Origin: Eledone cirrhosa
Lineage: Eukaryota
Assembly (NCBI GenBank): GCA_964016885.1
Contig: OZ024752.1
Coordinates: forward strand, 24,180,001-24,244,000
Length of the DNA stretch: 64,000 bases
Reading direction: 5' to 3'
Of the stretch, positions 4,831-53,807 are shown in pieces; position 1 is the stretch's first letter; the number at the start of each line of letters is the position of its first letter. Position numbers and translations under genes: made by a program. The notes beneath the pieces are model-generated. The model did no database searches. It saw only the letters and a list, made by a program, of their open reading frames with translations, and was not told the origin of the DNA.

Positions 4831-6156
4831 AAACATTCCTCATGAAAAATTAAGCTACCCTAAAAGCCGATGCTCCAAATTTTTTGAATTAACCTTACAC
4901 TAGATAAACTTCTATATTAAATATAGGAACATATGTAGACATTATTGGACATCATAATCTTTTTTGCAATATTCTTTGCTAGATGTGATTTGATAGATAA
5001 TTTTTGGCTTTGTCTTGTAATGAACTTGGCAATATATTGTCAATTAACTTTGAAGGGTTGTTCTTTGTGGTTTATTTTCATTTTTATTTTTATTTTTATT
5101 TTTATTTTTATTTTTATTTTTATCCTTATTCTTTTAGTATTGTAGTATTCTATAATATTTTTATTTTTATTTTATTTTTAATATTTTTATATGTAAATTT
5201 TTAATACGTAATATTTTTTAATACGTATTTTTAATATGCAATATTTTTATTATGTAATATTCTTTCGTAATATCTTTTTAGTTTTCTATTCTATATTTTT
5301 ATATATTTTTACTTATTATTATTATTATTGTTATCTTTGTTTATAATATAATATATATTTTCGATTAGTATATTGAAATCTGCTCTCTATTTCTGCTTGA
5401 TAGATAATCTTGTAGAGTAATCGCAAGAATAATAATATGCTCAAATTTTTATACCACATTGAGAATGTTTTCCGGTAACTTAGAATTTGCGGAGTGAATC
5501 AGTTGGATTCACATTGATGTTTGTAGCTGTCACATAAACATATGAATTTTTTAAAACTAAACATAAGATAATGAATTTTCACACATTGTGAATACTTGTT
5601 TCATTCAGGAATACTGATATTTACAGTATAGTGTAAGTTTTATAAATACTAATACATTAAAACATAGGGTTTTCTACGCCTCGAATATGTCTGGCTATTT
5701 TTAAATTTTTTCTCTCTCTATATCTCTCTATATCTCTCTATATTTCTCCCTTACATTAATACTTGAGCTAAATAAATAAATAAATAAATAAATGTATCAT
5801 TGATACACTTACTCAAAATGACCTCCCACTACCTAATTTTCTATATATATATATGTATCTATCTCTATTTCCTCTCTCTATATATATATATCTCTTTCTG
5901 TCTCTTTACATGAAGCTCTTCGCTTTATCTATTTTTCCATCTCTCTATTTTGTTCCATGCATTTCTTCTTTTTCTTTTTTCTTCTTTTTCTTTTTCTTCC
6001 TTCTCTTCGTTCTGTCTTTCTTTCTTTCTTTTTTCCCTCTTTTCTTTCTCTCTTTCTTTCTCTCTGTATTTTCACTGCTAGCGTAAACCTCTCCAAATGA
6101 AGTTGATGTTTATTACGGTATGTCGAATATATTTATCTATAAAACTGTTTATATTG

Positions 6157-6222
6157 TATTTTGTCTGATGAAGGCATAGCATATTGTTAATATGATATCC
6201 CCGAAATATATATAATGAAATA
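6157..6222 (+). ncRNA. Type I hammerhead ribozyme (family A)
   Basis: UAUUUUGU-CUGAUGA(6165-71)-stem II (CAUAUU/AAUAUG)-GAAA(6203-06)-UAUAUA-UA-AUGAAAUA; helix I 8 bp with two G-U pairs. Confidence 0.75.
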
Positions 6223-6353
6223 AATATGGTTTTATAAATATAGTTTTCCATTTATTTAATATTGTAAATATACTCCAAATATTTGTCGAGTGCTTTTATA
6301 TCAGTTATAAATATTTACTAGTTGTAACCCAACAATTTTAAATATAACTTTAC

Positions 6354-6567
6354 ATGTATATATACATATATATATATATATATATACATATATATATATA
6401 TACATATATATATATATACATATACATATATATATACATATATATATATATACATATATATACATATATATATATATACATATATATACATATATATATA
6501 TCTACATATATATACATATATATATATACATATATATATATATACATATATATATATATACATATAT
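6354..6567. repeat. (TA)n/TACA microsatellite
   Basis: Direct reading. Confidence 0.95.
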
Positions 6568-6606
6568 AGAAATTACATGAATCAAAGTTCAGTTTAAATC
6601 ATTTAT

Positions 6607-6655
6607 TTGCTTACAATTGTTTCCTCCAAACCGAGGTTTGATTTCTTTGGAGCAA
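6607..6655 (-). ncRNA. Degenerate hammerhead (core reads CCAAAGA instead of CUGAAGA)
   Basis: Minus strand: UUGCU-CCAAAGA-..CAAACC/GGUUUG..-GAAA-CAAUUG-UA-AGCAA; helices I-III retained. Confidence 0.5.
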
Positions 6656-50500: not shown

Positions 50501-52063
50501 TCGCTTGCGCGCAAAGAACGCAAAGCAAAAGCATTTTTTGTTTTTTTTCCAATGTTACTCTTTCTTTTTCGAGGCATTCTACCGAAAATATGTAATTGAA
50601 TAAAGCTGATACAAATCAATTAAAAGAAATAAATAGTTGTGTACAATGTGTAAATTTTTGTAATAATAAGCAAGACGAAAAAGTATATTTTATCATCTGC
50701 TTTTTCTACACGGGAATTATATATTAGATTTTCATACTTACAAAATAATTTTGCTAATATCGTGTTTAGCAGTGTCGGTTGAGCAATGTTTAAATATTTG
50801 ATTAAAAACCAAAAGACAAACAGTAAATATATTTCAACCTCTGAATAAGTATTAAAGAAATGACGATTTTCACTTTGAAAATATGATTTATGACATCAAA
50901 ACTGCTTTAGAGTTTAATTTTTTGAATAAAAAGTATCGTCTGTTATTTCTTACAATTAACACATTTATACACACACATGCACACACGCACACACATACGC
51001 ACGTACACACACACACAAACACATACACACACAAACATACACACAAACACACACACATACGCACACAATCCCAAGACGTGACGTTGTGGAAAAGGGAGAG
51101 TTAAGAAGTGTAATAAATAAGTTAAAATTATAAACACTGTATTTATCGCTAAAGTATCGTCTGTTATTTCTTACAATTAACACATTTATACACACACACA
51201 CACATGCACACACGCACACACATACGCACGTACACACACACACAAACACATACACACACAAACACATACACATACACACACACACATACGCACACAATCC
51301 CAAGACGTGACGTTGTGGAAAAGGGAGAGTTAAGAAGTGTAATAAATAAGTTAAAATTATAAACACTGTATTTATCGCTAAAGTATCGTCTGTTATTTCT
51401 TACAATTAACACATTTATACACATACACACACACATGCACACACGCACACACATACGCACGTACACACACACACACAAACACACACATACAAACACACAC
51501 ATACACACACAAACACACACACACACACAATCCCAAGACGTGACGTTGTGGAAGGGGGAGAGTTAAGAAGTGTAATAAATAAGTTAAAATTATAAACTCT
51601 GTATTTATCATATTCGCGTCACACACACTCCTCTCTTTCTTTATTTTACTCTCTCTCTCTCACTCCTCTCTTTCTATCTCCCTCTCACACATCCTTCTCT
51701 CTCTGGCCGTTATGGAAATTACACACACACACACACACACAAACACATACACACACATATACACACGCACATACACATACAATCCCATAACGTCGTGTTG
51801 TGGAAGGGGGAGAGTTAAGAACTGTGTAAAAGGAACGCTCTCTCTCTTTAATGGCCGTCATGGAACTTGTTAGTGCAAAAGCCTATAAGATTATAAAATC
51901 GAAGTTTGTGACTTCGAAATTAATCATTATGAAATAATTTTTTCTTTATGTTACAAACCGTAGCCTATTTTGGCTATGTGTTTAATTTGACAGAGATGGA
52001 TGGAATATTTTCCAAGTGAAACTCTTTTACACACACACACAGAACGGGAATTATATATATAGA
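47504..52063 (-). mobile_element. Helitron concatemer including a Rep-fragment-bearing unit
   Basis: A|CTAG plus hairpin (cccggcgttgcgcggg) at 47504; GA|T at 52063; internal termini at ~48667 (hairpin ccgtccattggacgg) and 50728; three ~230-bp CA-rich tandem units 50930-51600. Confidence 0.8.
48935..50577 (-). pseudogene. Helitron RepHel N-terminal fragment, frameshifted near 49880 and truncated after Rep motif 1
   Basis: MPRKRK.., CVHC..CCSNG zinc finger, RNIRAYNSAFQMTSFG, LQYPLLFP.G..GY, ILPSSYTGGPRYM, GRPDLFITFTCNPKW. Confidence 0.92.
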
Positions 52064-52170
52064 TATATACGTCCAACTCTTGCTAGCAGGGAAAGTGGAC
52101 ATTTAAAAGAACAACCTGCAAAATTTTATATAGACTTTAGTCTATTTCCATGCCAGTATGGATGGAATGT

Positions 52171-52219
52171 GTGTCACTGATGAAAGATTAACAAATCTTG
52201 AAACAACACTGTCTAGCAT
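52171..52219 (+). ncRNA. Type I hammerhead ribozyme
   Basis: GUGUCA-CUGAUGA-AAGAUU AACA AAUCUU-GAAA-CA ACAC UG-UC-UAGCAU; one C-A mismatch in helix I. Confidence 0.7.
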
Positions 52220-53103
52220 CCTTGAGTGGACTGGCAACTCTGTTATATATTATTAGAGGAAAATAGAGACAAATAAATTGCTTTGTTACGAAAAAATAAT
52301 TTTCTTTGATAGCAAGTCTACTAAAATGTTTTCATCTGCACCCCTATAATGCTTAACAACGTAAGATAGAAATCTGATTTTATTTTCTTGCTCTATCTCT
52401 CCTCTCTCTCTTACTTGCTGTCGCTCTCTCCCACTTCTACTCAATGAATTCCTATACAAGTTTCTCTTATTCGATTGTTTACTTTCAACTACTCCTAGTA
52501 TGTGAGTGGCCAGAAGTAAATATAACTTTGAGAAACTTGTTGAAACTATAAAACGAATGAAATGATAAAAATGCATTACATAATGGAGTTGTGAAACAAA
52601 AACTATATTTTAAACGACACTTAAAACATTTTAAACATCAAAATATTAAAACTTCATAAATATATTTAATACTCATGAGTATTTCAAAACCACACCATCT
52701 AAACATAATGTGTTGATTAGCTACTTCAGCTTATAAACGGGTTTTCGATTTTTGTGCATTTCTTAGGCATAAAATAGGAGTTTAGATTATATTTAGATCA
52801 GTTGATATTTGAGTATGTATGGTAATGTCTCTATTATGTCTAATTTAGGGAAAAGAGAAAAAAATAGAGAGGATAACAAAATATTATCAAATTCTGGATA
52901 TCACTATATATGATTACCACATTGCTCTAGATTCAGCAACCCTAGAAATAAGAAAAAGAGGTACCATTATATTAATGACTTTCTGTTTCTATTTCAAATG
53001 ACATAAACTCATTAAGCTCGAAATTACACACACACACACACACACACATATATATATATATATATATAAGAAGAAATTAAAAGATGGTTAAAAAAGTTCC
53101 ATA

Positions 53104-53173
53104 TATTTTATTATGCGCATTTCGAAAACAACATCATCCTGGGACAAAAATTGTGTTCTCATCAGATAAAATA
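53104..53173 (-). ncRNA. Type I hammerhead ribozyme (family A)
   Basis: Minus strand: UAUUUUAU-CUGAUGA-GAA.ACAAU...GUUGU.UUC-GAAA-UGCGCA-UA-AUAAAAUA; helix III palindrome AUGCGCAU. Confidence 0.85.
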
Positions 53174-53807
53174 AGGTAACATGATATGAAGCATAAAAAC
53201 ACTTGTCAACAGGAAAGTGCAAAGTCTACATATGACAGACAGAAATATAAGAGTAAGAAAAAGATAGGAAAATAGAAGAAAAGGAAAGAAGAAGTAGAAA
53301 AAGGAAAAAGAAAGTGAAGAGAGGAAAAAAGGAAAAAAGAAAGAAGGAGGAGAGAGAAAGAGAGAGAGAGAGAGACTTTTGATCAGGAACGCTGTCAAAA
53401 TGAAACAAGCTGTAAATAACGGTTAAAAAGTAAATTGATGAGATGTGTGTGCGATAAAATAAAGGGGTCGATGAAATAAAATACCAGTAATGCACTATTA
53501 ATGCTGGCCTTGTGCCAAAACGTAGAAACAATTATAGATGGTATTCAAATATTAGAGGTCTAAAATATAGAAACTGGGTATATTATTTTATATTGGGTTT
53601 AAATACTAAAAATTGGATTAAGAAGTGTAAAGATGTATTAATAAAATAAAAAAATTAAAATTAAATTAAATTAAAATAAGTATAAAAAAGATTTTTATAA
53701 AATAAAATATAATTAAAAAATAAAAATAGTCTATGTCAAAATTAAAATTTTTTATTAAAAATCTATATGTGGGGTATACTATTTAATTATTATTTTATAT
53801 CAACAAG

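What the first reader, a model, noticed from the sequence alone, without database searches (positions are those of the whole stretch)
6070..53400. One HHR family in three diverged copies that keeps structure while sequence changes
Seen: 6157+, 16693- and 53104- share helix I UAUUUU(A/G)U / AU(A/G)AAAUA and a cleavage site ending in UA. Their stem II sequences differ completely, and helix III is AUAUAUAU in two and AUGCGCAU in the third, still a palindrome. Copies 6157 and 16693 also share upstream blocks (GTTGAT...GGTATGTCG...ATAAAAC). All three have a long pyrimidine-rich tract upstream on the ribozyme strand. Inference: the structure was under selection in the source elements.
Basis: partly seen in the sequence, partly recalled or inferred. 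Interest (0 to 1): 0.75.

Follow-up and report, generated by a model that had tools for sequence, protein, structure and literature searches.

The report
Penelope-type hammerhead ribozymes, worn copies
The three sites hold complete hammerhead self-cutting RNA motifs with a shared outer stem, unrelated but still paired inner stems and a palindromic third stem; they are likely worn tail ends of Penelope-like jumping genes, a kind in which this exact pattern is already published.

Summary
At 6157-6222(+), 16693-16757(-) and 53104-53173(-) lie type I hammerhead motifs: full core, 8-bp helix I, AUA cleavage triplet, 8-nt palindromic helix III. A strict descriptor finds 3 in the window and none in 300 shuffles. 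Each stem II pairs better than its shuffles (p 0.002-0.011), yet the three do not align with each other. All three follow a pyrimidine tract (2% background) and precede a (TA)n tract.

Correction: only A and B share upstream sequence (~85 nt), and the 1.2-1.6 kb bodies do not align. These look like related families, not three copies of one element. Three further hammerheads of other families were missed.

The best reading is decayed 3' ends of Penelope-like elements (PLEs) whose ribozyme likely cuts as a dimer. No PLE reading frame was found, so that link is inferred. Cervera and De la Peña 2014 already report palindromic helix III, covariation and, in Aedes, the same shared-helix-I, swapped-palindrome pattern. 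New member of a known kind; low interest.

The parts
6157..6222 (+). Hammerhead A: helix I 6157-6164 / 6215-6222, core 6165-6171, stem II 6172-6202 (long hairpin, 11 of 14 positions paired), helix III palindrome 6206-6213, cleavage after 6214
6070..6146 (+). Block shared with B: TTTCACT..TAG|CG, GTTGAT, GGTATGTCG, ATAAAAC. The last block can extend helix I by pairing with the 3' flank; the AG at about 6082 is a candidate intron acceptor (untested)
5891..6097 (+). Pyrimidine tract upstream of A (60-nt windows >=80% pyrimidine, best 97%)
4830..5700 (+). T-rich body of element A (47% T, 11% G); no protein family match; lies between AT-rich microsatellites; limits approximate
6355..6568 (.). (TA)n/(CA) microsatellite downstream of A, likely insertion target
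16693..16757 (-). Hammerhead B: core 16749-16743, stem II 16742-16713 (A-U closing pair), helix III 16709-16702, cleavage after 16701
16765..16834 (-). Block shared with A, including TTTCCACT..CAG|CG
16902..17001 (-). Pyrimidine tract upstream of B (best 85%)
17070..17310 (.). Multi-copy SINE-like insertion inside element B; the same repeat sits in C and at 35492-35682
   Evidence: the SINE label is recalled, not from a call
17320..18030 (-). T-rich body of element B (48% T, 5% G); no protein family match; limits approximate
53104..53173 (-). Hammerhead C: core 53165-53159, stem II 53158-53124 (G-C closing pair, 13 pairs), helix III ATGCGCAT 53120-53113, cleavage after 53112; (TA)n starts 43 nt downstream
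53225..53400 (-). Pyrimidine tract upstream of C (best 100%)
53400..54220 (-). T-rich body of element C, broken by SINE-like pieces at 53464-53567 and 53788-53962; limits approximate
16519..16561 (-).
37345..37380 (+).
42825..42903 (+).

Best explanation
A, B and C are type I hammerhead motifs with a complete core, paired stems I and II and a palindromic helix III, and they are likely the decayed 3' ends (pseudo-LTR part) of three related Penelope-like retroelement families that inserted beside (TA)n tracts. Shown: the motifs, their pairing, the pyrimidine tract upstream, the (TA)n downstream, and A-B homology for about 85 nt. Inferred: in the source elements the RNA was transcribed as a tandem or met a second copy; the 8-nt palindromes paired between two ribozymes to form a stable helix III, which would allow cleavage after AUA. 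Helix I and the core stayed fixed while the long stem II drifted under a pairing constraint. The genomic copies are now probably passive relics: solitary, hit by later SINE-like insertions, and with no reading frame left to detect.
For: The descriptor excess over shuffles, stem II pairing without homology and compensatory changes show a selected structure. A and C fit the published consensus of metazoan PLE hammerheads: U-rich 5' flank, CUGANGA(H), G10.1-C11.1, palindromic helix III, AU-rich 3' flank (PMC4209133 Fig. S3). That figure has three Aedes families with shared helix I, different stem II and a palindrome centre swapped CGCG/GGCC. The paper reports that most such motifs are single and probably belong to truncated PLEs and stresses extreme within-genome variability with covariation. 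All 6 of 6 motifs have (TA)5+ within 350 nt downstream (43-327 nt), against 21% of non-microsatellite positions (cut-off chosen after seeing the data; B and B2 share one tract). (TA)n targeting and a sense-strand hammerhead near the 3' end are documented for PLEs, including an Octopus bimaculoides family (PMC8557442). Closing helix III within one molecule costs 2.1-2.8 kcal/mol against leaving it open, while self-duplexes give -3.2 (A, B) and -10.5 (C) kcal/mol. E shows the partial tandem plus 5' inversion typical of PLEs (described).
Against: No RT or GIY-YIG remnant was detected: 0 meaningful Pfam hits in 136 short open frames around the motifs (best E 0.04) and 0 in 24 stop-read-through frames; nothing below E 0.13 in PHROGs; none in NCBIfam; 0 phmmer hits for one of A's six frames in 1.84 billion proteins; none in three word-index searches. 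A 1.2-1.6 kb T-rich body without a frame is longer than the Hydra-clade 3' UTRs seen (about 200-250 nt before the ribozyme). None of A, B or C lies in a tandem of its own kind. B lacks G10.1-C11.1. Free folds of A and B trap the AUAUAUAU palindrome on the 5' strand of helix I, 2.4-4.7 kcal/mol below the open hammerhead form, so these copies may cut poorly. Rfam hammerhead models do not hit at E <= 10.
Confidence: 0.68

Rival explanations
1. Non-autonomous, non-coding ribozyme-bearing retroposons (retrozyme-like or SINE-like) of 1.2-1.6 kb that borrow a PLE's RT and endonuclease; they never had a reading frame.
For: No frame was found by any search. The bodies are low-complexity and 46-48% T. 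Nearby element E is a 688-nt frame-less unit in partial tandem. PLEs are proposed to mobilise retrozymes (PMC7229834).
Against: Described non-LTR retrozymes are 170-400 nt tandem repeats, mostly with canonical helix sizes; A, B and C are solitary and longer.
Confidence: 0.2
2. C is not kin to A and B; the shared helix I and AU..AU helix III arose by convergence in AT-rich elements.
For: There is no significant A-C or B-C similarity upstream or in stem II, nor in the bodies.
Against: The 8-mer TATTTT(A/G)T occurs at only 0.3% of positions even in the T-rich bodies. C also shares the 3' strand, helix III length and ends, the AUA triplet, the C.Y mismatch and the pyrimidine tract. The other three hammerheads in the window share none of the helix I sequence.
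Confidence: 0.07
3. The motifs are host-kept ribozymes that process transcripts of the nearby C2H2 zinc-finger genes.
For: Two long C2H2 arrays lie on the minus strand (20415-22853 and 61917-63368); B, B2 and C are on that strand downstream of them.
Against: A is on the other strand. All sit in repeat-derived DNA with mismatches and SINE-like insertions. They lie kilobases from the coding ends. No orthologous conservation could be shown.
Confidence: 0.04
4. Chance matches in AT-rich DNA.
For: Free-fold z-scores are near zero; there is no Rfam hit.
Against: 0 of 300 shuffles gave even one strict hit, and stem II pairing, which was not asked for, is significant in all three.
Confidence: 0.01

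Closest known systems
Type I hammerheads of metazoan Penelope-like elements with a small palindromic helix III (Cervera and De la Peña 2014, PMC4209133; Aedes, Drosophila willistoni, rotifer and shrimp variants)
   Same: Type I topology, CUGANGA/GAAA/UH core, palindromic helix III suited to dimer cleavage, long stem II, U-rich 5' flank, mostly solitary copies, and related families differing in stem II and palindrome centre while sharing helix I.
   Different: Stem II region is 30-35 nt, longer than the examples listed in Fig. S3. Helix I is 8 bp and can extend. B has A-U instead of G-C at the base of stem II. No linked PLE frame was found here.
Hydra-clade PLE hammerheads, including Hydra-1_Obim of Octopus bimaculoides (Craig et al. 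2021, PMC8557442)
   Same: Sense-strand hammerhead near the 3' end, near-palindromic helix III of 8-10 nt, (TA)n insertion preference.
   Different: The sequences differ: six short motifs from A, B, C and B2 had 0 occurrences in that paper's supplement (line breaks could hide a match). Stem II is longer here and the upstream body much longer. E, not A-C, looks closest to Hydra-1_Obim by eye.
Non-LTR retrozymes of metazoans (Cervera and De la Peña 2020, PMC7229834)
   Same: Non-coding, low-GC context with a type I hammerhead.
   Different: Retrozymes are 170-400 nt tandem repeats expressed as circles; A, B and C are single, 1.2-1.6 kb, with non-canonical helix sizes.
Poseidon PAc element of Anolis (PMC11167929)
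   Same: Hammerhead in the pseudo-LTR; AT-rich target preference.
   Different: There the frame starts inside stem II, and cleavage needs the element's protein and is dispensable for insertion in vitro; none of this could be tested here.

Membership tests
Hammerhead ribozyme, type I | CUGANGA and GAAA boxes, UH cleavage site, three helices with helix I open-ended | tested here: met
Hammerhead ribozyme, type I | Self-cleavage | not testable with these tools
   No bench assay and no read evidence
Rfam hammerhead families | Score at the family's gathering threshold | tested here: not met
   No Rfam family at gathering in the window; no hammerhead family at E <= 10 around A, B or C
Metazoan PLE hammerhead (Cervera 2014 consensus) | Palindromic helix III | tested here: met
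   3 of 3, and 6 of the 7 descriptor hits in the window
Metazoan PLE hammerhead (Cervera 2014 consensus) | G10.1-C11.1 pair | tested here: inconclusive
   Met in C, and in A if the extra A is bulged; B has A-U. The published list also has A-U cases
Metazoan PLE hammerhead (Cervera 2014 consensus) | [quoted passage not shown] | tested here: inconclusive
   Present in A, ambiguous in B, absent in C; also absent in some published PLE motifs
Metazoan PLE hammerhead (Cervera 2014 consensus) | Larger than usual helix II; U-rich 5' and AU-rich 3' flanks | tested here: met
Penelope-like element | Frame with telomerase-like RT and GIY-YIG endonuclease upstream of the ribozyme | tested here: inconclusive
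   None detected, but no PLE-specific profile was available and the DNA is decayed; by-eye resemblances to an endonuclease C-terminus rest on recall only
Penelope-like element | Pseudo-LTR partial tandem, often with a 5' inversion | tested here: not met
   Not seen for A, B or C; seen for E. 5'-truncated single copies are known to show only the 3' ribozyme
Penelope-like element (Hydra, Neptune or Naiad type) | Insertion at (TA)n | tested here: met
   for B the tract lies beyond B2
Hydra clade | RWK and DKT motifs, endonuclease without CCHH | not testable with these tools
   No frame recovered
Non-LTR retrozyme | 170-400 nt tandem repeats each with a hammerhead | tested here: not met
Non-LTR retrozyme | Expression as circular RNA | not testable with these tools
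   No RNA data examined

The most novel reading that the evidence does not exclude
The helix III palindrome works as a family barcode: each element family's ribozyme pairs and cuts only with its own kind, much as retroviral dimer-initiation palindromes do (analogy recalled). The five palindromes in this window self-pair at -1.7 to -17.8 kcal/mol and cross-pair worse than the stronger partner's self-duplex in every case. The ATATATAT to ATGCGCAT switch would then mark reproductive isolation between sister families. A, B and C would be an undescribed long-stem, possibly non-coding octopod retroposon lineage whose ribozyme follows a conserved intron acceptor.
Probability: 0.12. Interest if true: 0.55.

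Novelty: new member of a known kind. Interest (0 to 1): 0.2.

Why it matters
As it stands it adds one more, apparently uncatalogued, long-stem variant to the known hammerheads of Penelope-like elements. It shows these motifs are dense here (six in 64 kb) and invisible to Rfam models, so a descriptor can flag old PLE ends that protein searches miss. The role of PLE hammerheads is still open: cleavage is slow, protein-dependent and dispensable in vitro in one element. The natural pair ATATATAT versus ATGCGCAT on a shared helix I offers a simple test of whether dimer pairing is family-specific. It does not change the picture unless that specificity, or a non-coding origin, is shown.

Tried and rejected
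Rfam: whole-window E <= 1 gave 248 matches, of which the 150 shown were microsatellite matches to microRNA and sRNA models; 0 at gathering. Pattern scans for the family motif: 1 hit in metagenome contigs, which lies inside an intact 460-aa glutamine-synthetase-like frame (name recalled) and lacks the 3' helix I strand, rejected as chance; 0 in viral contigs for this and for the D-type motif. Covariance model from the three motifs: finds only its three training copies, next best E 1.4. A scan allowing one core mismatch found none. One of seven descriptor hits (56182-56267, minus) was dropped: stem II base unpaired and helix III not palindromic. An early idea of a PLE frame antisense to ribozyme A found no support. 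tblastx among bodies gave only low-complexity matches. Sequencing runs: 9 of 12 listed rows hold part of the B region, best share 0.43; no RNA holder listed; no reads or contigs were laid, so there is no evidence on copy number, variants or expression. The first pair count used a mis-registered structure and was redone. ARAGORN found no tRNA. Lünse et al. (PMC5785218) is not held; it is known only from its citation. Earlier scan notes held nothing for this genome or for look-alike sequence.
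Full report
Setting. The window is AT-rich animal DNA with long (TA)n tracts, two C2H2 zinc-finger arrays, several non-LTR reverse transcriptase remnants, an LTR-type RNase H piece and a Helitron piece. This looks like an octopus genome; that label is my recollection of such genomes and comes from no call. No assembly is held, so all tests are on the window itself, on public collections that are almost wholly prokaryotic or viral, and on papers.

Observation. My own descriptor scan of both strands returned seven candidates. Each has an 8-bp helix I, CTGATGA, a 30-35 nt stem II region, GAAA, an 8-nt palindromic helix III and an AUA cleavage triplet. 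Three more have palindromic helix III but different helix I: B2 16519-16561(-), D 37345-37380(+) and E 42825-42903(+). The seventh (56182-56267) was dropped because its stem II base is unpaired and its helix III is not a palindrome. With helix I >=8 bp and palindrome >=4 bp, the window has 3 hits and none of 300 local dinucleotide shuffles has any; at the loosest setting it is 6 against a mean of 0.007. Stem II pairing was not part of the descriptor, yet an end-anchored hairpin score beats 3000 shuffles at p = 0.002, 0.011 and 0.006, while the three stems do not align beyond chance (p = 0.08, 0.48, 0.74). For B2, D and E that score is not significant (p = 0.07, 0.10, 0.24). On the three-way alignment, 44 of 45 cells pair and five pairs change on both sides, three at the stem II base and two in helix III; 4 of 500 shuffles reach this. 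With n = 3 and a structure read from these sequences, that is suggestive only. Free folding energies are no better than shuffles, and Rfam has no hammerhead match, probably because of the long stem II.

Surroundings. A and B are homologous for about 85 nt upstream (p = 0.002; blastn 72% over 93 nt). C is not detectably related outside the ribozyme. In A the shared ATAAAAC block can pair with the 3' flank and extend helix I, which may explain its conservation. All three have a pyrimidine tract 60-270 nt upstream (0.97, 0.85, 1.00; background 2.1%); B2 and E do not, and D reaches 0.80. In A and B the shared block begins TTT(C)CACT..YAG|CG, 83 and 70 nt before the core. In Drosophila virilis Penelope an intron ends at the ribozyme's 5' side, so tract plus AG may be an intron acceptor. 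This is untested, and C's nearest AG lies in a different context. Further upstream lie T-rich bodies (46-48% T) that do not align with each other by blastn, nhmmer or tblastx; B and C carry later insertions of the same SINE-like repeat. All six motifs have (TA)5+ within 43-327 nt downstream, against 21% of background positions within 350 nt (post hoc cut-off; B and B2 share a tract). A model built from A, B and C finds no fourth member in the window.

Search for a coding link. I scanned 136 of the 148 open frames of 24 aa or more around the motifs (12 left out, mostly low-complexity) against Pfam, 24 stop-read-through frames against Pfam, 24 against PHROGs and 5 against NCBIfam. One frame of A was run by phmmer against 1.84 billion proteins, and three frames by word-index search. 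None gave a meaningful hit. By eye, one sense frame of A near 5540-5660, one of B near 17590-17500 and one of D near 36750-36800 resemble the C-terminus of a GIY-YIG endonuclease; that rests on recall and is not evidence. The link to Penelope-like elements is therefore inferred from ribozyme type and insertion context, not shown.

Mechanism. Shown: intact cores and paired helices. Computed: closing helix III within one molecule (2 bp plus a 4-nt loop) costs 2.1-2.8 kcal/mol against leaving it open, whereas two copies pair through the palindrome at -3.2 (A, B) or -10.5 (C) kcal/mol; A or B with C gives +1.7. Free folds of A and B put the AUAUAUAU on the 5' strand of helix I, an inactive form 2.4-4.7 kcal/mol lower. 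Inferred: the source elements cleaved as dimers, in tandem transcripts or with help from their protein, and the present solitary copies are mostly silent. Published PLE hammerheads are slow in vitro, and in an Anolis element cleavage needs the protein and is dispensable for insertion in vitro, so the purpose of cleavage remains open for the whole kind.

Comparison with print. Cervera and De la Peña 2014 (PMC4209133; read parts 1-2 of 4 of the text and parts 1-2 of 3 of the supplement) describe palindromic helix III, long helix II, covarying families, mostly solitary copies and extreme within-genome variability. Craig et al. 2021 (PMC8557442; sections 6 and 11, passages, and supplement parts 2, 23, 52 plus searches) list (TA)n-targeting Hydra-clade elements with such ribozymes, one from Octopus bimaculoides, whose sequence differs from A-C. 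From PMC7229834, PMC6765202, PMC11167929 and PMC13282606 I saw passages only; the last counts 31 recently active Penelope-like families in Octopus vulgaris and does not contain the words hammerhead or ribozyme in its main text. Searches for hammerhead with octopus or cephalopod and with polypyrimidine listed no description of this particular family; the library lacks most subscription papers and Repbase, so absence is weak.

Verdict. The feature is real and well read, but it belongs to a described kind. The likeliest reading is worn 3' ends of three related Penelope-like families (0.68), then a non-coding dependent retroposon (0.20). New member of a known kind, interest 0.2. The boldest reading left open is that the palindrome is a family-specific pairing code (0.12).

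Noticed in passing
window 42178-43207 (+): Element E: between two (TA)n tracts, a 54-nt inverted piece, then a 688-nt frame-less unit with a hammerhead, then a 294-nt repeat of its start (96.6% identical). The unit begins 15 nt past the ribozyme's cleavage site (42898), as expected if the template RNA had been cut there. It is younger and more informative than A-C; candidate non-autonomous PLE or large retrozyme.
   Followed up: partly
window 16519-16561 (-) and 15082-15304: A second hammerhead family (B2) lies directly downstream of B on the same strand; its 3' flank is duplicated about 1.1 kb away across a microsatellite, without the ribozyme.
   Followed up: partly
window 37345-37380 (+), 37160-37180: Minimal hammerhead D, with a strong acceptor-like site (T-run, CAG) 173 nt upstream.
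   Followed up: partly
stem II of A, B, C: All three have a C.Y mismatch at the fourth position of stem II, possibly a conserved contact site and not decay.
   Followed up: no
window 24-1149 and 44039-45164: 1126-nt inverted pair, 94% alike, part of a non-LTR retrotransposon; both carry CTGATGA at 536 and 44652 without a hammerhead fold.
   Followed up: no
window 20415-22853 and 61917-63368 (-): Two paralogous C2H2 zinc-finger arrays, with a decayed third segment at about 19840-20410.
   Followed up: no
window 2878-3001: Perfect inverted arms around a (TA)n core, MITE-like; only sub-threshold microRNA model hits.
   Followed up: no
window 48828-50619 (-); 40200-41223 (+): Helitron remnant and LTR-retrotransposon RNase H remnant.
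   Followed up: no
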